From Thermoanaerobaculia bacterium (GTDB lineage Bacteria; Acidobacteriota; Thermoanaerobaculia; Gp7-AA8), in assembly GCA_035546335.1 (NCBI GenBank), contig DATKDP010000016.1, positions 135,380 to 199,379 of the forward strand: a stretch of DNA of 64,000 bases, in the 5' to 3' direction. Below are positions 3,893 to 59,135 of the stretch, one piece after another (the stretch's first letter is position 1; each line of letters starts with the position of its first letter). The notes under the pieces were generated by a model that made no database searches, was not told the origin of the DNA, and saw only the letters and a list, made by a program, of their open reading frames with translations. A program made the translations under genes and the position numbers.

Positions 3893-4480
3893 ATGAAACT
3901 GATCGTCGGGTTGGGAAACCCGGGCCGCGAGTACGACAAGACGAGACACAACATCGGGTTCCGCGTGGTCGACGCCTTCGCCCGGAAGTTCAGAGTCGCT
4001 TTCGACAGGCACGAGAAGGACGCGCTCACCGGGCGGGGCCGGGTTGCGGGACGGGCGGTGGTCCTTGCAAAACCGCTGACCTGGATGAATCTGTCCGGCT
4101 CGGCCGTCAAGGGTCTGGCCGGACTGTATGTCGACTCGATGAGCGACATGATGGTCGTGTACGATGACATCGACCTGCCGGCGGGCCGGCTGCGGATCCG
4201 GGAGAGAGGCTCGGCAGGAACGCACAATGGAATGAAATCGATCGTGGCGGCGATTGGAACCGAGGAATTTCCGAGGCTGCGAGTCGGCATCGGGGGCGGC
4301 TCGAGCGAGCAGATGCTGAGCGAGTACGTTCTCGATGCGTTTTCCCCCGAAGAGGAGATCCTCATCGAGCGGGCTGTCGGTCGGGCCGTCGATGCGCTGG
4401 TTCTCTTTGCTCGAGGCGAGCTTCTTCGGGCGATGAACGAGTTCAATCGCGATCCCGAGATCGGGCTCGCGGAGGAGTGA
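3893..4480 (+). CDS. pth: Peptidyl-tRNA hydrolase
   Basis: MKLIVGLGNPGREYDKTRHNIGF ... canonical Pth N-terminus and length (195 aa). Confidence 0.9.
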   Translation: MKLIVGLGNPGREYDKTRHNIGFRVVDAFARKFRVAFDRHEKDALTGRGRVAGRAVVLAKPLTWMNLSGSAVKGLAGLYVDSMSDMMVVYDDIDLPAGRLRIRERGSAGTHNGMKSIVAAIGTEEFPRLRVGIGGGSSEQMLSEYVLDAFSPEEEILIERAVGRAVDALVLFARGELLRAMNEFNRDPEIGLAEE

Positions 4481-18554: not shown

Positions 18555-18717
18555 CTGGCCGAAGTCCCGAAGGGACGATTGAAAATAGCCCGGGACGAAG
18601 TCCCGGGTAGGGTAGCGCACAAGACACGAAGACCGCCAGTCCCGTAGGGACGGTTGACCGCCCGGGATGATGTCGCCGATTCGCCAGGGGCGGGCGCGGG
18701 ACGCCCGCTCTCCCCTG
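18555..18717. repeat. Three roughly 35-bp tandem units (GAAGTCCCGnAGGGAC cores) followed by a copy of dispersed hairpin module M2 (18686-18717)
   Basis: gaagtcccgaagggacg / gaagtcccgggtagggt / cagtcccgtagggacgg, then GGGGCGGGCGCGGGACGCCCGCTCTCCCC. Confidence 0.55.
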
Positions 18718-19766: not shown

Positions 19767-20374
19767 CGGTTCGCCACTCCCGGGCGATACGGCTCGAGCA
19801 GGCGCCGCGCGTATTTGGCCAGGATGTCGATCTCGATGTTCGACGGATCGCCGATCTCGCACGCTCCCAGATTCGTCTTCTGCAGTGTTTCGGGGATCAG
19901 CGCGACGCCGATCTCGTTGCCGGCGGGATCGACGATCGTCAGCGAGACGCCGTCGACGGCGATCGATCCCTTCTGGACGAGAAGCTCCGAATGATCCTCT
20001 TCGAGCCGCCAGCGATAGACGGAGAAGTCTCCCGCCGATTCTTTCGTCACCAGCGTGGCCACGGTGTCGACGTGACCCTGCACGATGTGTCCCCCGAGCC
20101 TCTCGGAGAGCCGCATTGCGCGCTCGAGATTCACGCGTCTGCCGGCAGGGAGCCGCTCGAATGTCGTCCGGCGCAGCGTTTCGGGAGAGAGGTCGGCATG
20201 GAATGACCTCGCCCCATCCGGAAAAACAGTGACGCAGACGCCGTTGACGGCGACGCTCTCTCCCTTTTCGAGATCGAGCGGAACATCGATCGAGCCGATG
20301 ATGATGCGGGCGCCGGCCTCCAGCGGCTCGAACGCCTCGAGCGTTCCCATGTTGCGGATGATGCCTGTGAACAT
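19763..20374 (-). CDS. ribE: Riboflavin synthase alpha subunit
   Basis: MFTGIIRNMGTL ... two lumazine-binding repeats (GESVAVNGVCVTV, GSIAVDGVSLTI). 203 aa. ATG overlaps the ribD stop. Confidence 0.9.
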   Translation of the reverse strand: MFTGIIRNMGTLEAFEPLEAGARIIIGSIDVPLDLEKGESVAVNGVCVTVFPDGARSFHADLSPETLRRTTFERLPAGRRVNLERAMRLSERLGGHIVQGHVDTVATLVTKESAGDFSVYRWRLEEDHSELLVQKGSIAVDGVSLTIVDPAGNEIGVALIPETLQKTNLGACEIGDPSNIEIDILAKYARRLLEPYRPGVANR

Positions 20375-21474
20375 CAGATCGCCGTTTCCTGATCGGGGTA
20401 GGCGGTCACCACGAGGTCGTTTCCCGATCTCTCCACCGAATCGAACCGGAAACGGGGCGCGTCTGTCAACCGCGACACTCCGCCGGACGGAGAGTAGAGC
20501 GCGGGCGCCGACTCCCCTCCGAGAAGCACGGGCGCGATGAAGAGGATCATCTTCTGCCACAGCCTTCTCCGGATCACGTCGGTGTGCAGTGCCGAGCCTC
20601 CTTCGACGATGACCGAGCGTACGCCTCTTTCGTAGAGCGCGCGCAGAACTTCGAGGAGATCGATGCGCCCTTCGCCGTCGCTCACCGAGGCGATGACCTC
20701 GGTATTCTTCGCGCCCTCGTAGCGCTCCGGGCGTGTCGTGAACAGCACCGTCGGACGATCGTCGGCGAGCAGAGTGGACGATGCCGGGATCTTTCCCCGC
20801 GAGTCGACGATCGCACGAATCCAGGGGGTGATCGACGTATTCAGCCCGAGCCGCCGCGTGAGCTCCGGGTCGTCGGTCACGACCGTGCCGCTGCCGACGA
20901 GAATCGCATCGTGCTCCTCGCGCAGGAGGAAGTTCCGCTGGCGCGATTCGGTCGAAGTGATCCATCGGCTCTCGCGATTGATGGTTGCCAGCTTGCCGTC
21001 GAGCGACATGCCCCCCTTCAGCACGACGAACGGGAGGCGGGTGCGAACCGAGTGGAGGAAGACTTCGTTGAGCCGTCGCGCCTCTTCCTCGAGCAGGCCG
21101 GCCTCGACGGCGATTCCGGCGGCCCTCAATCGTTCGATCCCCTGACCGTCGACGAGAGTGTTGGGATCGCGTGTGGCGATCACCACGCGCGCCACCCGCG
21201 CGTTCACCAGCGCCTCGGCGCAGGGAGGCGTCCGTCCTGTGTGGGCGCACGGCTCGAGGCTGACGTAGACCGTCGCGCCGGCCGGGTCCTCCCGGCATGC
21301 GCTCAGCGCCTCGACCTCGGCGTGCGGCTCGCCGGCCCGCCGATGAAATCCCTCGCCGATGACCGTCGAGCCCCTGGCGATGACGCAGCCGACCATCGGG
21401 TTCGGGCTGACGGAGTGAAGGCCGAGCCTTGCCAGCTCGAGAGCGCGACGCATCGCGGCGTGATCATCTTCCAT
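20374..21474 (-). CDS. ribD: Bifunctional riboflavin biosynthesis deaminase/reductase
   Basis: MEDDHAAMRRALELARLG ... HAEVEAL ... PCAHTGRTPPCAEAL (CMP/dCMP deaminase zinc motif), then a reductase domain. Start at the internal Met of the longer track ORF. Confidence 0.9.
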   Translation of the reverse strand: MEDDHAAMRRALELARLGLHSVSPNPMVGCVIARGSTVIGEGFHRRAGEPHAEVEALSACREDPAGATVYVSLEPCAHTGRTPPCAEALVNARVARVVIATRDPNTLVDGQGIERLRAAGIAVEAGLLEEEARRLNEVFLHSVRTRLPFVVLKGGMSLDGKLATINRESRWITSTESRQRNFLLREEHDAILVGSGTVVTDDPELTRRLGLNTSITPWIRAIVDSRGKIPASSTLLADDRPTVLFTTRPERYEGAKNTEVIASVSDGEGRIDLLEVLRALYERGVRSVIVEGGSALHTDVIRRRLWQKMILFIAPVLLGGESAPALYSPSGGVSRLTDAPRFRFDSVERSGNDLVVTAYPDQETAI

Positions 21475-21526
21475 TCGTGGCGGTAGTCTCGCACGAAGCG
21501 CCGTCGATGTCAGCCTGCGTCCCGCA

Positions 21527-21733
21527 CCACGCGCGACGATCCCGCCAACCAGTGGGGAGAGCGGGCGTCCCGCGCCCGCCCCTGCAACACGCGCGACGAT
21601 GCCGCCAACCCGCCGGGGAGAGCGGGCGTCCCGCGCCCGCCCCTGTAACACGCGCGACGATGCCGCCAACCCGCCGGGAGAGCGGGCGTCCCGCGCCCGC
21701 CCCCGCAACACGCGTGACGATCCCGCCAACAGC
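21527..21733. repeat. 3.5 tandem copies of a roughly 59-bp repeat, each carrying hairpin module M2, in the 5' leader of ribD
   Basis: cacgcgcgacgat[c/g]ccgccaacc..ggggagagcgggcgtcccgcgcccgcccctg[c/t]aa repeated at 21527, 21587, 21646, with a partial copy at 21704. Confidence 0.8.
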
Positions 21734-21766: not shown

Positions 21767-22413
21767 TCACCCGACGATCTCCCCCGCATGAAGCCGCCTG
21801 AGGAAGATCTCGAGGGGAAGGACGAGTGTGCCGTCGACTTCGAGCTCGCGGTCGCCGCGATAGACGATGTAGCTCTTCGCTCTCGTTCCGGAGAGAAAGG
21901 CCTCGATTCCCTTCCTGTGCTCGCGGCGGAAGTCGCGAGCGTGGTTGACCTCGATGGCGACGACATCGCGACCCCGCCACCAGACGAAATCGACCTCGCT
22001 TCCGCTCGGCGTCGCCCAGTAGCCGAGGGAGCCCTTGACGCCCTGGTAATGGAGATGACTCCGGATCTCGTGAAGGACGAGATGCTCGAGGAGAACACCA
22101 TCCCAGTCCGGTGGCAGCGGCTGATCGAGCCCGCCGGCGGCCGCGTGGAGAACACCGGAATCGAACCAGTAGAACTTCGGGAGCGCTACCTCCTTGACTT
22201 TCGATCGCGGCCTGTAGGCCGGAAGCCAGTGGCCGATGAGGGTATCGACGAGGATCTCGAAGTAGCCGCGCGCCGTCTCGCGCGAGACGCGGGAAGAAGG
22301 TTGACCAGGTGGGCGTCGCCGAAATTCGAGCGGATCCAGGTGCTCTTGCCGGTCCCGCGCGGGCCGAAGAGAAAGAACGACGTCGGAGGAGGGCGCAGTT
22401 CACGTGGAAACAT
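21767..22413 (-). pseudogene. DUF4143/AAA_14-family ATPase remnant with internal deletion and frameshift
   Basis: N-terminal 40 aa MFPRELRPPPTSFFLFGPRGTGKSTWIRSNFGDAHLVNLL (Walker A). It is then joined out of frame to the C-terminal DUF4143 part SRETARGYFEILVDTLIGHWLPAYRPRSKVKEVALPKFYWFDSGVLHAA ... HAGEIVG*. The roughly 200-aa AAA core is absent. Confidence 0.65.
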
Positions 22414-22666
22414 CGATACCAAATTTACCGTCAAATTGGTGTCGATGTCTACAGGGCGACCGGTTGTGTCGTCACAGGTGGACATCCACTTGGGGTCGGG
22501 CGTCCCCATGGGGGTCGGGCGTCCTCGCCGCCGCAGGCAAAATGCGGCAGCTCTGAGCAGGCTGAGTAGATCTGTCCCGTTGTTTCTCAGCCTCCACGAC
22601 ACCAGGGTCTGACCCCCCGCGCGGCGGGACTCCCAGGTCATCGAGCAACCGAGGTATTCGTGGAAC

Positions 22667-22750
22667 GTGGACGACCACGAAGTTCGCTACGACCCCTCAA
22701 AGGCCGCGCAGAATCTGAAGAACCATGGGGTGTCGTTCGAAGAGGCGGCG
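22667..22750 (+). pseudogene. BrnT (DUF497) toxin N-terminal stub
   Basis: V(M)DDHEVRYDPSKAAQNLKNHGVSFEEAA matches the BrnT N-terminal FEWDPxKAxxNxxKHGVSFEEA motif. The reading frame degenerates immediately after. Confidence 0.55.
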
Positions 22751-22789
22751 CATCCACCTTCCTGCCCGCCTTTGCTCCACGCCCGTTAC

Positions 22790-23570
22790 GGCGCTTCAAC
22801 AAGGCATCCTCGAGGAGATGAGACTCTGGACTCCGGAGAAGGGAACGCCACAAGGCGCGGTGATCAGCCCGTTGCTGGCGAATCTCTATTTGCACCCTGT
22901 CGACGTGGAAATGCGCGAGGCGGGGCTCCGAATGATTCGCTATGCAGACGACATGGTCATCCTGTGCGGGAGTCGCGAAGAGGCGGAACACGCACTGACC
23001 AAGCTCCGAAGCGCCCTCGAAGCGAAGCAACTCACGCTCCACCCGGTCAAGACGAAGCTCGTCGATGCGACGCTACGGCTAGGATTCCAGTTTCTCGGAT
23101 ACGACTTCTTCGGAGGACGACGGTATCCGCGCGAGCCGAGTGAACGGAAACTGCGCGAGCAGATCCGGAAACGAACTCGCAGGAATCGATCCGACAATCT
23201 GAAGACGATCATCGAAGATCTCAACAAGGTACTTCGAGGATGGTTCGCGTATTTCAAGCACCCTCACGCCGGGCGTTCGAAGGTCTCGACGGCTACATTC
23301 GCTACCGGCTCAGAGCCATTCTGAGCAAGCGAAGCCGACGCGGCCGGAAACGACGCCGTGGGCGTGGAAAGGACCATTTCCGCTGGCCCAACGCCTACTT
23401 CCGTGCGCAAGGTCTCTTCTTCCTTCACGAGAACCATCTGCGCGCCCTACGGTCCCATGCAGGGTGAACCACCAACTGGAGAGCCGGATGCGGGGAGATC
23501 CGCCAGTCCGGTTCGGAGGGAGGGGGAGGCCGGGAGGCCTCTCCCTCCCCCTATCTCGGGGCCGCCCGCT
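22790..23570 (+). mobile_element. Group II intron remnant: 5'-truncated, frameshifted RT/maturase ORF plus RNA domain V (23481-23514)
   Basis: RT motifs GTPQGAVISPLLANLYL, IRYADDMVILC, thumb/X LRGWFAYFKH. After a frameshift near 23265 comes LDGYIRYRLRAILSKR ... RWPNAYFRAQGLFFL, the maturase C-terminus. Domain V GAGCCGGATGCGGGGAGATCCGCCAGTCCGGTTC. RT domains 0-3 and RNA domains I-III are missing. Confidence 0.7.
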
Positions 23571-23581
23571 CTCCCTGGATG

Positions 23582-23750
23582 ATGGCAAGCACCCGGACGA
23601 AGCTATTGCGCTTCGTTACTGCTTCGCAAGCCCTCTGTTCTATCCCTCGCGCAAATGCTTCGTCCCTACGATGGGCGTTGCGAATTTGTTGGCGCACCCG
23701 CGCATCCGGGGGCGGGCGTGGGATGCCCGCCCCCGGTTCGGACTTTACGG
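23582..23750. repeat. Dispersed repeat copy (module M1 followed by hairpin module M2)
   Basis: atggcaagcacccggacgaagctattgcgc ... tcgcgcaaatgcttcgtccctacga ... gggggcgggcgtgggatgcccgccccc. About 85% identical to the inverted copy at 58845-58985. Gives near-identical spurious peptides MASTRTKLLR in the ORF track. Confidence 0.8.
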
Positions 23751-25253
23751 AATCTTCGGCGTCGCGAAGAACGACTGCGACCGGCCGCCGCGCGTGTAGC
23801 GTGTCACATAGAGGCGGAGGTACTGGCCGCTGCGCGCCTGCTCGACGCTGCGCCGGAACTGCTCGGTACTGGTGAGCGGCTGCCCGTTCACCTGGGTGAT
23901 CACGTCGCCGGGCTGCAACCCTGCTTCGCCGGCGGGGGAGACCTCCCGCACGCTGGTGATCACGACTCCTTGGACGTCGTCTCCGAGTCCGAACTGGCGG
24001 CGGAGCATCGGAGTGATCTGCTGGACCGAGACACCGAGCCTGTTCTGCGCGGGACGGTCGGGGCCGCTTTCGGACTCGCCGTCGGGGGCGAGCGAGGCGG
24101 GCCGCTCTTTGGTCGTCGCGGTCACGGTGCGTTGCTGGCCGTTTCGCAGCAGAGTGATGCGGACCTGAGCGCCGGGACCCTTCTCGGAGACGTAGTCGAT
24201 CAGGTCGCGGGTGCTGTTCACCGCCTGCCCGTCGACCTGGGTGATCACGTCGCCCGGCTGAAGTCCGGCCTTCTCCGCCGGCTCGCCCGCCACGACGGCC
24301 TCGACGAACGCGCCGCGCACGGAAGGCAGACTGAAGGCGTCTCTCCGCTCGGGACTGATATTGGTGACGTTGATGCCGAGGTAGCCGCGGCTGACGCGCC
24401 CCTTCTCCCGGAGCTGCGGGAGAATTTTCCTCGCCACGTTGATCGGAGTGGCGAATCCGAGTCCCTGGGCCATGGCGCGCATCGCGGTGTTGATTCCGAC
24501 GACGTCGCCGTTGATGTTGCACAGCGGTCCGCCGGAATTGCCGAAGTTGATCGCCGCATCGGTCTGGATGAAGTTCTCGAAGGACGAGGTCGCCTCGCTG
24601 ATCCCGAGGGCGCGGTTCTTGGCGGAGATGACCCCGACGGTCAGGGTGTTCTCGAACTGGAGGGGATTGCCGATGGCGATCGCCCAGTCGCCGACGCGGA
24701 TGGCGTCGGAGTCTCCGAGCGTGACGGTGGGAAGCTGTTCCTTGACCTCGATCTTGATCAGTGCGATGTCGGTGGCGGGATCGCGGCCGATGACTTTCGC
24801 ATCGGCGACCTTGTCCGCCTCGCCGTACTGCACGCGGATGCTCGTCGCTCCCTCCACGACGTGATTGTTGGTCAGGATGTAGCCGTCAGCGGAGATGATG
24901 AAGCCCGAGCCCCCGCTGAGCTGCCGTCGCTCCTCTTCCTCTCCCTGCTGCCGCCGTGGATCGGGAAAGAAAAAGTCGAAGGGATTGACCTCGCGTCCCC
25001 GCCGTTCGCTGCTGCGGTAGATCTCGGTCGTGGTGATGGAGACGACGGCTGGCATCACGCGCGCCGCGACGTCCGCGAACGAGGGGATCGTCATCGTGGG
25101 CACGGCTGCCTGGGTCGTCTGAATCGGCGGCGGTGCCGGTTGGGCGCTCGAAGGCCTCAGCCATCCGAAGTCTGCGGTGATGATCATTCCGAATGCGATC
25201 GATGCGACGATGATCGCTCCGATCGAAAGGTTGCGCTTCATTGCCTGCGTCAT
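23745..25253 (-). CDS. Periplasmic serine endoprotease DegP/HtrA family with two PDZ domains
   Basis: Signal/TM N-terminus. Catalytic triad context TNNHVV ... DIALIKI ... GNSGGPL. Two PDZ segments (GAFV ... GLQPGDVITQV, repeated). Confidence 0.85.
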   Translation of the reverse strand: MTQAMKRNLSIGAIIVASIAFGMIITADFGWLRPSSAQPAPPPIQTTQAAVPTMTIPSFADVAARVMPAVVSITTTEIYRSSERRGREVNPFDFFFPDPRRQQGEEEERRQLSGGSGFIISADGYILTNNHVVEGATSIRVQYGEADKVADAKVIGRDPATDIALIKIEVKEQLPTVTLGDSDAIRVGDWAIAIGNPLQFENTLTVGVISAKNRALGISEATSSFENFIQTDAAINFGNSGGPLCNINGDVVGINTAMRAMAQGLGFATPINVARKILPQLREKGRVSRGYLGINVTNISPERRDAFSLPSVRGAFVEAVVAGEPAEKAGLQPGDVITQVDGQAVNSTRDLIDYVSEKGPGAQVRITLLRNGQQRTVTATTKERPASLAPDGESESGPDRPAQNRLGVSVQQITPMLRRQFGLGDDVQGVVITSVREVSPAGEAGLQPGDVITQVNGQPLTSTEQFRRSVEQARSGQYLRLYVTRYTRGGRSQSFFATPKIP

Positions 25254-27454: not shown

Positions 27455-27665
27455 GTGGGGAGAGCGGGCGTCCCGCGCCCGCCCCCGTGCGGCGGAACAG
27501 CCTTTGCGTTTCGGAAACTGGTTTAGGCGGACGGCAAAGGGGCGGGCGCGGGACGCCCGCTCTCCCTCGCGCAAATGCTTCGTCCCTACGAGGGATGAAG
27601 TGGGCTTGGTTGCATCGTCGCGGGTGCGACAGGGGCGGGCGCGGGACGCCCGCTCTCCAGGGGGC
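27455..27665. repeat. Dispersed repeat cluster: M2 (reverse) ... M2 + 3' part of M1 ... M2
   Basis: ggagagcgggcgtcccgcgcccgcccc (27462-27492). ggggcgggcgcgggacgcccgctctcc immediately followed by ctcgcgcaaatgcttcgtccctacgagg (27538-27594). ggggcgggcgcgggacgcccgctctcc (27631-27660). Confidence 0.8.
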
Positions 27666-58839: not shown

Positions 58840-59135
58840 TCCTCGTAGGGACGAAGCATTTGCGCCAGGGACAGACCAAGAGGCTTGCGACGCCGCAAGG
58901 CAGCGCAATAGCTTCGTCCGGGTGCTTGCCATGAGCTAACCAAGCCCTGCGGGGAGAGCGGGCGTCTCGCGCCCGCCCCTGTCCCGAATTGCGAACCTCA
59001 GCGCGCAGTCGTTCCGGCGCGAGTGTCACAGCCTCGCAGTACTCGGGGGAAGCTATTGCGCTGCGCTGCGGTCATGCGAGCCTGTTGTGGCGGCGCTCGC
59101 GCAAATGCCTCGCCCCTGCGAGAGAGGTTGCAGTC
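58840..59135. repeat. Dispersed repeat cluster: M1 (reverse), M2 (reverse), second degenerate M1 (forward)
   Basis: ctcgtagggacgaagcatttgcgcc ... cgtccgggtgcttgccat (58845-58935). ggggagagcgggcgtctcgcgcccgcccc (58945-58985). gaagctattgcgctgcg ... tcgcgcaaatgcctcgcccctgcgag (59050-59130). Confidence 0.8.

What the first reader, a model, noticed from the sequence alone, without database searches (positions are those of the whole stretch)
21767..23570. Compact graveyard of three decayed mobile/defence genes: DUF4143 ATPase with internal deletion, BrnT toxin stub, and the 3' half of a group II intron
Reading the minus strand by hand shows an ATPase whose Walker-A N-terminus (40 aa) is fused out of frame to its C-terminal DUF4143 domain, with the AAA core deleted. 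250 bp away on the plus strand a BrnT-type toxin starts normally but loses frame after about 28 aa. It is followed by a group II intron-encoded RT/maturase lacking RT domains 0-3, with a frameshift before its C-terminus, and then a recognisable domain V hairpin (23481-23514). No BrnA antitoxin, no intron domains I-III and no target exon are identifiable. The arrangement looks like an old defence/TA islet that was invaded by a group II intron and then eroded by deletions, and it sits directly upstream of ribD.
Basis: seen in the sequence. Interest (0 to 1): 0.6.

Follow-up and report, generated by a model that had tools for sequence, protein, structure and literature searches.

The report
Three dead gene remnants between degP and ribD
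The three broken genes are real, but they are ordinary decaying accessory DNA wedged into a normally tiny gap between two housekeeping genes, and the intron remnant belongs to a hairpin-targeting family and carries a small inverted piece of itself at its broken end.

Summary
On the minus strand, 21770-22413 is an AAA_14/DUF4143 ATPase pseudogene. It has a Walker-A N-terminus, about 170 codons deleted with a frame change, and an intact DUF4143 C-terminus. On the plus strand there is a 28-codon BrnT start (22667-22750). It is followed by the 3' 757 nt of a group II intron: RT motifs 4-7, a frameshifted maturase domain, and domains V/VI (RF00029, 52.6 bits), ending at 23554.

- **Setting.** In 13 relatives degP, ribD and ribE are adjacent, with a 50-330 bp hairpin-containing spacer. 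Here the spacer is 2270 bp, so the whole segment is lineage-specific accessory DNA.
- **No coherent islet.** Intact homologues of the ATPase sit alone, without BrnT.
- **Intron target.** Full-length relatives of the intron always lie 1-5 nt after a GC-rich hairpin (IIC-like). The intron therefore probably landed beside a REP or terminator hairpin, not inside brnT.
- **New detail.** The 49 nt between the BrnT stub and the RT (22749-22797) are an inverted copy of intron domain III and the base of domain IV. This marks a complex deletion.
- **Further decay.** The branch-point A is mutated to C.

These are ordinary decay products of known element types, so interest is low. A side observation is that truncations in this intron family cluster at the same RT3/RT4 position.

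The parts
21770..22288 (-). ATPase pseudogene, C-terminal part (DUF4143 domain); stop codon at 21767-21769
   Evidence: Pfam PF13635 at E=2.2e-19. tblastn of P0123 residues 202-374 gives 77% identity in frame -1.
22289..22293 (-). Deletion junction of the ATPase pseudogene. About 170 codons (about 0.5 kb: Walker B and the AAA core) are missing and the frame shifts.
   Evidence: Homologue residues about 32-201 have no counterpart. The flanking matches are in frames -2 and -1.
22294..22413 (-). ATPase pseudogene, N-terminal 40 codons with Walker A (GPRGTGKST)
   Evidence: Translation. 77-83% identity to the N-termini of P0122, P0123 and P0125, and 71% to P0126. Weak P-loop Pfam hits.
22667..22748 (+). 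BrnT-type toxin stub (GTG start, about 28 codons)
   Evidence: PF04365 positions 1-22 at E=1.2e-4, below the cut-off. PDB 7VD7 'toxin' at E=0.02. Hits to the N-termini of annotated BrnT genes in 152 plasmid records.
22749..22797 (-). Inverted 49-nt patch of the intron's own ribozyme: the distal hairpin and 3' strand of the last helix before the ORF (domain III by position), through the base of domain IV. It corresponds to intron nt 394-442 of L004 or 422-470 of L002.
   Evidence: blastn on the minus strand gives 92-94% identity, E about 1e-12 to 1e-14, at the same position in 13 or more relatives. RNAalifold shows a covarying hairpin.
22798..23267 (+). Intron-encoded protein remnant: RT motifs 4-7 and the first half of the maturase (X) domain. 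Collinear with intron nt 1117 onward; up to 4 nt (CTTC, 22794-22797) may be shared with the patch.
   Evidence: RVT_1 positions 114-203/205 at E=3e-19 and GIIM positions 2-43. blastn to L004/L002. tblastn of full IEPs from residue about 142-171.
23267..23272 (+). Frameshift inside the maturase domain
   Evidence: tblastn matches switch from frame 3 to frame 2 here. GIIM is split between two ORFs. The frameshift is reproduced in the Logan contig L163.
23270..23467 (+). C-terminal part of the intron-encoded protein in the second frame (rest of X; no endonuclease domain); stop at 23465-23467
   Evidence: GIIM positions 43-75 at E=1.6e-3. tblastn in frame 2.
23481..23514 (+). Intron domain V (34 nt, AGC triad, GAGA loop)
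   Evidence: RF00029 at 52.6 bits, E=1.8e-7. RF04356 aligns to 23481-23514.
23517..23554 (+). Intron domain VI and the 3' end (..CCCCUAU). The branch-point A is replaced by C at 23547.
   Evidence: RF00029 alignment. Nearly all relatives whose intron 3' end was located read C(U/G)ACCxCxAU with the A.
23555..23575 (+). 3' flank: CTC followed by a REP-like palindrome remnant that lacks its central 10 nt (GGGGC^CGCCCGCTCTCCC)
   Evidence: Comparison with the nine REP copies in the window.
23582..23671 (+). Dispersed repeat about 90-120 nt long with 17-nt terminal inverted repeats (MITE-like); part of the 3' flank, not of the intron
   Evidence: 89% identity to 58843-58932 on the minus strand. Sequences. 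Folds are not better than shuffles.
21524..21730 (.). Tandem array of 60 bp x 3.4, each unit holding one REP-like palindrome. It fills the spacer between the ATPase stop and the ribD start.
   Evidence: Tandem Repeats Finder score 344, 92% matches. REP motif hits.

Best explanation
The 2270-bp interval between degP (stop at 23745) and ribD (start at 21474) is lineage-specific accessory DNA. It has filled a spacer that normally holds only a short hairpin, and it is now decaying.

**Contents, none of which can function.**
- A solitary AAA_14/DUF4143 ATPase gene, killed by one out-of-frame deletion of about 0.5 kb.
- The first 28 codons of a brnT toxin gene.
- The last 757 nt of a group II intron.
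- REP-like palindromes and a MITE-like repeat.

**The intron family.** It lacks an endonuclease domain and encodes a protein of about 415 aa. Its closest solved relatives are IIC reverse transcriptases. It inserts 1-5 nt downstream of GC-rich DNA hairpins.

**Inferred history.**
1. A full-length copy retrohomed beside one of the REP or terminator hairpins of this spacer, on the strand antisense to degP-ribD.
2. A complex deletion removed the rest of brnT (and presumably brnA), the target hairpin and intron nt 1-1116.
3. The junction was patched with 49 nt copied in inverted orientation from intron nt about 394-442. Templated patches of this kind are made by strand or template switching. Up to 4 nt of microhomology (CTTC) are possible at the patch/RT junction.
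4. The relic then drifted: a frameshift in domain X and a branch-point A-to-C change.

**Shown versus inferred.** The identities, coordinates, junctions, synteny and hairpin targeting of relatives are shown. The order of events and the DNA-level nature of the rearrangement are inferred.
For: **Identity of the pieces.**

**Synteny.** In the closest degP relatives found (13 fully measured; degP 52-57% identical), degP is followed directly by ribD and then ribE. The spacer is 53-328 bp and always folds into a strong hairpin. The window has 2270 bp there.

**ATPase homologues.** They are solitary and have no BrnT neighbour.

**Intron family.**
- Full-length copies are 1.84-1.92 kb.
- The 5' end GTGCG is preceded by a hairpin plus a 1-5 nt spacer, and the stems differ between sites (L004-L007) while remaining paired.
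- The hairpin signal against control windows gives p=2e-16.
- The best PDB matches are IIC RTs: GsI-IIC at E=5e-61 and the chain in 7UIM at E=3e-59, against 8e-43 and 3e-37 for the 6ME0 and LtrA chains.
- A relative's IEP matches TIGR04416 above the cut-off.

**The inverted patch.**

**The junction is not a homing site.** The upstream flank has no hairpin, and neither the rest of BrnT nor BrnA is found downstream.

**Branch-point loss.**

**Hairpin-rich surroundings.** REP-like palindromes are abundant here.

**Second assembler.** The same sequence was obtained independently.

**Literature.**
- Most bacterial group II intron copies are truncated or inactivated, and IIC introns insert at terminator or other inverted-repeat motifs (PMC4424553).
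- The same is stated in the abstract of PMC1702495.
Against: - No intact or less decayed version of this locus was found. The source species is absent from the genome collection, and the closest intron relative is only 68-74% identical in protein. The ancestral arrangement and the microhomologies therefore cannot be read directly.
- The break at intron nt about 1117 coincides with a cluster of truncation and deletion edges in independent copies of the family. This hints that the truncation may have arisen during reverse transcription rather than by later DNA deletion.
- The BrnT call rests on about 23 residues below Pfam's threshold.
- The original 5' exon hairpin is gone, so hairpin targeting of this particular copy is inferred from relatives.
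Confidence: 0.75

Rival explanations
1. RNA-level origin. The copy was born truncated during retrohoming. cDNA synthesis from the 3' end stopped at a family-specific stall or cleavage site near nt 1117-1190. A second priming event from a free top-strand DNA end on the intron RNA at nt about 442 made the 49-nt inverted piece. This would be the group II counterpart of LINE-1 twin priming.
For: - Seven independent truncated or internally deleted copies, including this one, have the left edge of their 3' segment within about 100 nt at the RT3/RT4 boundary: window, L164, L041, L051, L060, L055 and L048.
- In L051 a strong hairpin plus CCA (-18.8 kcal/mol) lies immediately upstream of the truncated copy, as expected for a 5'-truncated insertion at a canonical site.
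- The order flank, then rc(442->394), then 1117->end has the topology expected from twin priming.
- IIC RTs switch templates readily (abstracts of 10.1101/792986 and PMC8363836).
Against: - The flank upstream of the patch is the middle of brnT with no hairpin, and the 3' flank is not brnT. At least one further DNA deletion is therefore still needed.
- About 675 nt lie between the patch and the direct segment.
- Among the copies whose upstream flank was examined, L164 has no adjacent hairpin and L041 only a weak one.
- No other inverted patch was seen in about 70 related loci.
- The sample of truncated copies is small and the boundaries are fuzzy, because the DNA just upstream aligns poorly.
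Confidence: 0.15
2. Two intron copies once flanked one palindromic hairpin head to head. Such a palindrome can be targeted on either strand. The resulting long inverted repeat was unstable, and two deletions left 49 nt of the minus-strand copy next to the 3' part of the plus-strand copy.
For: - REP palindromes are near-symmetric and clustered in this spacer.
- The family targets hairpins.
- Multi-copy genomes exist: four or more identical copies in one Acidobacteriota MAG and nine in an alphaproteobacterial MAG.
Against: - It needs two insertions and two independent deletions.
- No head-to-head pairs or minus-strand fragments were found within 4 kb of any relative.
- The patch abuts both neighbours with no extra intron sequence.
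Confidence: 0.15
3. A coherent defence/toxin-antitoxin islet (ATPase plus BrnTA) was invaded by a group II intron that homed into brnT, and the islet then eroded.
For: - A homologue of the ATPase matches the PADLOC defence-candidate family PDC-S01 at E=9e-50.
- The BrnT stub is adjacent to the intron.
- Another truncated copy (L041) also lies next to a TA-like gene pair.
Against: - ATPase homologues are solitary, without BrnT.
- The intron family inserts after hairpins, not into coding sequence.
- There is no hairpin at the brnT junction.
- The DNA 3' of the intron is a REP-linked repeat, not brnT.
- An inverted intron patch lies between brnT and the RT.
Confidence: 0.07
4. Assembly or sequencing artefact. 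The junctions or frameshifts are errors of a metagenome assembly, and the genes are intact in the organism.
For: The source is a metagenome-assembled genome. Repeats such as introns and REPs can cause mis-joins.
Against: - An independently built Logan contig from run SRR8556377 is 100% identical over 982 bp. It covers the BrnT stub, both patch junctions and the frameshift.
- The 49-nt patch is shorter than typical assembly k-mers, so single reads must span it.
- The 3' flank and the ATPase deletion are each internally consistent.
- The Logan contig may derive from the same reads, so this is not an independent sample. The ATPase junction was not re-found.
Confidence: 0.05

Closest known systems
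Bacterial class C (IIC) group II introns, e.g. B.h.I1 of Bacillus halodurans and GsI-IIC of Geobacillus stearothermophilus
   Same: - The IEP has no endonuclease domain and is about 415 aa; the intron is about 1.9 kb.
- Full-length relatives sit just downstream of DNA stem-loops.
- The closest solved proteins are IIC RTs.
- Domains V/VI fit RF00029.
- IIC behaviour is described in PMC1702495 and PMC4424553.
   Different: - Targets here are GC-rich REP-like palindromes without a T-run, rather than classical terminators.
- The IIC ribozyme features (short domain I, no EBS2) were not examined.
- The window copy lacks nt 1-1116, has lost its branch-point A and has a frameshifted ORF, so it is a relic, not an intron.
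Fragmented or truncated bacterial group II intron copies (general phenomenon; review PMC4424553)
   Same: The copy is 5'-truncated and mutated, and it lies outside housekeeping genes among other repeats. The review states that the majority of bacterial copies are truncated or inactivated.
   Different: It carries a 49-nt inverted piece of its own domain III/IV at the truncation junction. I found no description of this in the papers searched.
LINE-1 5' inversion by twin priming (from my own knowledge, not tested)
   Same: The topology matches: upstream flank, then an inverted internal segment, then a 5'-truncated direct 3' segment.
   Different: - There is a large gap (about 675 nt) between the inverted and direct parts.
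- There is no target-site signature upstream.
- The element is bacterial and lacks an endonuclease.
- A DNA-level template switch explains it as well.
BrnT/BrnA type II toxin-antitoxin (PF04365)
   Same: The N-terminal 22 profile positions match, including the ..DP.KA..N..KHGVSFEEA motif.
   Different: Only 28 codons remain, there is no BrnA, and the match is below Pfam's threshold. The stub is not a functional member.
AAA_14 + DUF4143 'ATP-binding protein' family (PADLOC candidate PDC-S01)
   Same: The DUF4143 domain is 76-84% identical to intact homologues, and the Walker A motif is retained. A homologue matches PDC-S01.
   Different: The AAA core (about 170 residues) is deleted and the frame is broken. 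The family's defence role is only a candidate, and homologues are solitary genes.

Membership tests
Group II intron | Domain V/VI ribozyme core | tested here: met
   RF00029 at 52.6 bits (gathering score 40), 23479-23554.
Group II intron | Intron-encoded RT/maturase in domain IV | tested here: met
   RVT_1 (positions 114-203) and GIIM match, but the protein is N-terminally truncated and frameshifted. A full-length relative matches TIGR04416 at 377 bits (cut-off 300).
Group II intron | Complete ribozyme (domains I-IV) with 5' GUGYG | tested here: not met
   Only nt 1117-1873 are collinear with relatives, and a 49-nt domain III/IV piece is present in inverted orientation. No other piece is found in the window.
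Group II intron | Bulged branch-point adenosine in domain VI | tested here: not met
   C at 23547 where nearly all relatives whose 3' end was located have A.
Class C / IIC group II introns | Insertion just downstream of a DNA stem-loop (terminator, attC or other inverted repeat) | tested here: inconclusive
   Met for 34 insertion sites of relatives. For the window copy the 5' exon is lost and the present upstream flank has no hairpin.
Class C / IIC group II introns | IEP without endonuclease domain, grouping with class C IEPs | tested here: inconclusive
   The ORF ends shortly after domain X. The best PDB matches are IIC RTs. No representative I could assign to classes D, E or F appeared among the PDB matches, and no phylogeny was made.
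Class C / IIC group II introns | IIC ribozyme architecture (reduced domain I, no EBS2, IBS1/IBS3 only) | not tested
   Domain I is absent from the window. Relatives were not modelled, and the Rfam D1-D4 models gave no hits on L001-L003.
BrnT toxin (PF04365) | Full BrnT fold with profile match above threshold | tested here: not met
   Only profile positions 1-22 of 77 match, at 22.7 bits against a cut-off of 34.5.
BrnT/BrnA module | Adjacent BrnA antitoxin gene | tested here: not met
   No Pfam match in the three forward frames of 23555-23800. The DNA directly after the stub is intron-derived.
AAA_14/DUF4143 ATPase | DUF4143 C-terminal domain | tested here: met
   PF13635 at 70.2 bits (cut-off 28.1).
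AAA_14/DUF4143 ATPase | Intact AAA_14 P-loop core (Walker A and B) in one reading frame | tested here: not met
   AAA_14 matches only profile positions 5-26, at 14 bits. Homologue residues about 32-201 are absent and the frame changes.
Anti-phage defence system (PADLOC) | Match to a validated defence protein family | tested here: inconclusive
   The intact homologue P0123 matches PDC-S01 at E=9e-50, but this is a candidate family only. There are no partner genes in the contexts of homologues.

The most novel reading that the evidence does not exclude
The relic may not be a random deletion product. It may be a retrohoming accident at a family-specific hot spot. In this hairpin-targeting intron family, reverse transcription or the inserted RNA would fail recurrently about 700-750 nt from the 3' end, at the RT3/RT4 boundary. 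In this copy a second priming or template-switch event would have added an inverted domain III/IV segment. That would be a bacterial group II intron equivalent of LINE-1 5' truncation with twin-priming inversion.
Probability: 0.12. Interest if true: 0.55.

Novelty: new member of a known kind. Interest (0 to 1): 0.22.

Why it matters
This mainly matters for annotation. The three ORF fragments should be marked as pseudogenes or intron relics, not as a reverse transcriptase, an ATP-binding protein or a toxin.

The locus also illustrates how a conserved degP-ribD-ribE junction with a terminator hairpin can act as a sink for accessory genes, REP-like repeats and a hairpin-targeting retroelement, which then decay by deletion.

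Two details might interest group II intron specialists. One is the inverted templated patch at the truncation junction. The other is the apparent clustering of truncation edges at one position across phyla. If a proper survey confirmed the clustering, it would point to a defined weak spot in cDNA synthesis or RNA stability during retrohoming of endonuclease-less introns.

Tried and rejected
- **Rest of brnT or brnA after the intron.** Looked in three frames of 23555-23800 against Pfam at E<=10 and found nothing.
- **Other copies in the window.** Looked for further copies of the intron, ATPase or BrnT and found none.
- **Source genome.**
  - The exact look-up of degP failed, and a mis-framed ribD look-up gave an error.
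  - The exact look-ups of P0002 and of the 151-aa ATPase ORF also failed.
  - The genome-contig scan found only relatives at 68% identity or less, plus a 74% fragment.
  - The metagenome scan with degP found only relatives at 57% or less, so no 'intact island' is available.
- **Rfam models for domains I-IV.** A sensitive Rfam scan found nothing beyond domains V/VI in the window region or in L001-L003.
- **REP interrupted by the intron.** I first thought the intron interrupts a REP palindrome. Alignment with other copies shows instead a REP with a 10-nt internal deletion after 'CTC', so this idea was dropped.
- **Extra G in the domain V loop as decay.** Rejected. The window's 5+4+5 upper stem-loop fits the RF00029 consensus without a gap, whereas relatives need one.
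- **Head-to-head or inverted intron fragments near relatives.** None found.
- **Internal repeats in the intron that could explain the recurrent breakpoint.** None found.
- **The 90-120-nt repeat after the intron as a structured RNA.** Folding z-scores are -1.2 to -2.3, which is not convincing.
- **P0007 as another truncated copy at the hot spot.** Rejected. Its locus L165 has the upstream RT part as a separate ORF, and the intron is truncated at nt about 320 instead.
- **Plasmid tblastn with a full IEP to survey truncations.** Not informative in the 'best' listing.
Full report
**1. What is in the sequence**

*ATPase pseudogene (minus strand).*
- An ORF start at 22413 encodes MFPRELRPPPTSFFLFGPRGTGKSTWIRSNFGDAHLVNLL.
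- A different frame encodes a 176-aa C-terminus ending at the stop codon 21767-21769.
- Pfam places DUF4143 on the C-terminal frame at E=2.2e-19. It finds only weak P-loop matches on the N-terminal piece.
- A database search found many intact 339-377-aa AAA_14+DUF4143 proteins, 76-84% identical over the C-terminal part.
- Their residues about 3-31 align to 22380-22294 in frame -2, and residues about 202-374 align to 22288-21770 in frame -1.
- One deletion of about 170 codons, not a multiple of three, therefore removed the AAA core. No other lesion is visible.

*BrnT stub (plus strand).*
- The ORF at 22667 begins MDDHEVRYDPSKAAQNLKNHGVSFEEAA.
- This matches positions 1-22 of the BrnT profile at E=1.2e-4, below the threshold.
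- It also matches a PDB toxin (7VD7, E=0.02) and the N-termini of annotated BrnT genes in 152 plasmid records.

*Intron remnant.*
- From 22798 the sequence is collinear with nt 1117-1873 of full-length relatives.
- It encodes RT motifs 4-7 and domain X, with a frame change at about 23267-23272.
- Domains V/VI match RF00029 at 52.6 bits. Domain V is at exactly 23481-23514, and the intron ends ..CCCCUAU at 23554.

**2.

*(a) An inverted piece of the intron.*
- The 49 nt between the BrnT stub and the RT (22749-22797) are a reverse-complement copy of a conserved ribozyme segment of the same intron family.
- They correspond to nt 394-442 of L004, 422-470 of L002 and the equivalent position in at least 13 relatives, at 92-94% identity to the closest and E down to 4e-14.
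- In an alignment of relatives this segment is the covarying GNRA-capped hairpin and 3' strand of the last helix before the ORF, running into the base of domain IV.
- Calling it domain III is an assignment by position.
- The three pieces abut without filler, and up to 4 nt (CTTC) could belong to either side of the patch/RT junction.

*(b) Branch-point loss.* The branch-point adenosine of domain VI is a C at 23547, whereas nearly all relatives whose 3' end was located keep the A.

*(c) The 3' flank is recognisable.*
- After 'CTC' comes a copy of a REP-like palindrome (GGGGCGGGCG-CGGGA-CGCCCGCTCTCCCC) that lacks its central 10 nt.
- It is followed by a repeat of about 90-120 nt that recurs at 58843-58932.
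- The palindrome occurs at least nine times in the window. Three of these lie in a 60-bp tandem array (21524-21730) between the ATPase stop and ribD.

**3. Context**

- The annotated fragment P0002 (HVT43145.1) identifies the source as a Thermoanaerobaculia MAG.
- ribD (20374-21474) and degP (23745-25253) are confirmed by NCBIfam.
- In the closest degP relatives retrievable (13 fully measured; 52-57% identity), degP is followed directly by ribD and ribE. The spacer is 53-328 bp and always contains a strong hairpin.
- In the window the spacer is 2270 bp. The whole 'graveyard' is thus lineage-specific DNA lodged in a conserved gene junction.
- Intact homologues of the ATPase lie singly among unrelated housekeeping genes with no BrnT.
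- The only link to defence is a match of a homologue to the PADLOC candidate family PDC-S01.

**4. What kind of intron**

- Full-length relatives were obtained from metagenome contigs (L002) and from GTDB genomes. They include four near-identical copies in one Acidobacteriota MAG (L004-L007) and nine in an alphaproteobacterial MAG.
- They are 1.84-1.92 kb long and encode a protein of about 415 aa with no endonuclease domain.
- Their 5' end GTGCG lies 1-5 nt after a GC-rich hairpin. The stem sequence differs between sites but stays paired.
- For 34 distinct sites, the 32 nt upstream fold with median -13.4 kcal/mol, against -6.6 for 1800 control windows (p=2e-16).
- The best solved-structure matches are IIC RTs: GsI-IIC at 5e-61 and the chain in 7UIM at 3e-59.
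- This is the behaviour described for IIC introns (PMC1702495 abstract; PMC4424553).
- I call the family IIC-like. I did not test the ribozyme features that define IIC, and I did not build a phylogeny.

**5. How the remnant arose**

*Evidence that brnT was not the homing site.*
- The flank upstream of the patch is brnT codon 28 and has no hairpin (-4.1 kcal/mol).
- The DNA after the intron is not the rest of brnT.
- At least one DNA-level deletion must therefore have joined brnT to the intron.

*The explanation needing fewest events.*
- A full-length copy retrohomed beside a REP or terminator hairpin of this spacer.
- One complex deletion then ran from brnT codon 29 to intron nt 1116.
- The junction was bridged by a 49-nt inverted templated patch made by strand or template switching.
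- A frameshift and the branch-point mutation followed.

*Alternatives.*
- Two head-to-head copies flanking one palindrome, followed by two deletions. No such pairs were seen near relatives.
- An RNA-level accident (section 6).

*Assembly artefact is unlikely.* A Logan contig of SRR8556377 is identical over 982 bp spanning the stub, both junctions and the frameshift. It may come from the same reads, however.

**6. An unexpected side observation**

Independent defective copies of this family, from different phyla, have the left edge of their retained 3' segment within about 100 nt at the RT3/RT4 boundary.

| Copy | Left edge of the retained 3' segment |
|---|---|
| window | 'LQQGILEEM' |
| L164 | 'LRQKVLEEN' |
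| L041 | same cluster |
| L051 | same cluster |
| L060 | same cluster |
| L055 | nt 1-99 joined to about nt 1186 |
| L048 | in-frame deletion ending about 15 codons upstream of the window's edge |

- Only three other breakpoints lie elsewhere: L045, L165 and L058.
- In L051 a strong hairpin plus CCA directly precedes the truncated copy, as expected for a 5'-truncated insertion at a canonical site.
- L164 has no adjacent hairpin and L041 only a weak one.
- No internal repeat explains the cluster.
- The sample is small. Boundaries are blurred because the DNA just upstream aligns poorly.
- The cluster nevertheless raises the possibility that the window's truncation point was set during reverse transcription. 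In that case the inverted patch would resemble LINE-1 twin priming.
- IIC RTs are known to switch templates readily.
- I give this reading about 12-15%.

**7. Comparison with what is known, and verdict**

- Truncated and inactivated group II intron copies are the majority in bacteria (PMC4424553).
- Insertion of IIC-type introns after hairpins, orphan toxin stubs and deleted ATPase genes are all familiar.
- The finding is a correct reading of three pseudogenes, but the 'islet invaded by an intron' story is not supported.
- Nothing here is functional.
- The novelty is limited to an uncharacterised IIC-like intron lineage in Acidobacteriota and other phyla, the inverted patch at the junction, and a possible truncation hot spot that deserves a proper survey.
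- Interest is low, at about 0.2.

Noticed in passing
window 18690, 21561, 21622, 21682, 23712 (variant), 27464, 27542, 27635, 58958; array 21524-21730: A REP-like GC-rich palindrome (GGGGCGGGCG-CGGGA-CGCCCGCTCTCCCC) is dispersed in intergenic DNA. Three copies form a 60-bp x 3.4 tandem array just upstream of ribD. A very similar palindrome is the insertion target of an intact intron copy in another Acidobacteriota MAG (L007).
   Followed up: partly
window 23582-23671 and 58843-58932 (-); partial copy at 27560-27594: A dispersed repeat of about 90-120 nt with 17-nt terminal inverted repeats (GGACGAAGCTATTGCGC / GCGCAAATGCTTCGTCC) is always attached to a REP palindrome. It looks MITE-like. RNA folds are not better than shuffles (z -1.2 to -2.3).
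   Followed up: partly
window 18563-18607 (-): Acido-Lenti-1 RNA (RF01687, 50 bits) lies next to a REP copy. This is consistent with an acidobacterial origin.
   Followed up: no
window 22798; L164 ~1079; L041 ~3996; L051 ~3999-4010; L060 ~4009; L055 4008; L048 3958: Seven independent truncated or internally deleted copies of this intron family, from different phyla, share a breakpoint region about 100 nt wide at the RT3/RT4 boundary, about 700-750 nt from the 3' end. This may be a truncation hot spot during retrohoming.
   Followed up: partly
L055 3926-4709; L045 2761-4075; L048 3307-4756: These are internally deleted derivatives that keep both intron ends and sit behind a canonical hairpin.
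- L055 is only 784 nt (nt 1-99 joined to about nt 1186-1887, with about 16 nt of overlapping alignment).
- L048 has an in-frame deletion of RT1-3.
They may be non-autonomous copies or decay products.
   Followed up: no
L041 3295-3825 and 3996-4703: A second Thermoanaerobaculia MAG has an internal 5'-truncated copy of the same intron family next to a small two-gene pair on the opposite strand that looks like a toxin-antitoxin module. The DUF433-like and PIN-like assignments are by eye and were not profile-tested.
   Followed up: no
L051 4010-4717 and 4771 onward: A 5'-truncated copy is followed 53 nt later by a hairpin and the 5' end of another intron copy. This shows tandem insertions at neighbouring hairpins.
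   Followed up: no
window 21475-21495 (-) versus L084-L121 spacers: In 11 of 13 relatives a TACAAT or GACAAT box lies about 8-14 nt upstream of the ribD start codon, which suggests a very short or absent leader. The window has GACTACCGCC at the same place, so the box is not conserved.
   Followed up: no
window 22493-22530: A direct repeat GGGGTCGGGCGTCC x2 lies in the ATPase-brnT intergenic region. Sixteen nt are identical to the reverse complement of the hairpin that precedes the intron copy in L059. It may be a degenerate REP relic.
   Followed up: no
L165 2101-3196: In a 5-Mb contig the intron ORF is split into two called genes, and the intron is truncated at nt about 320. It may be a real pseudogene or an indel error of a long-read assembly.
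   Followed up: no
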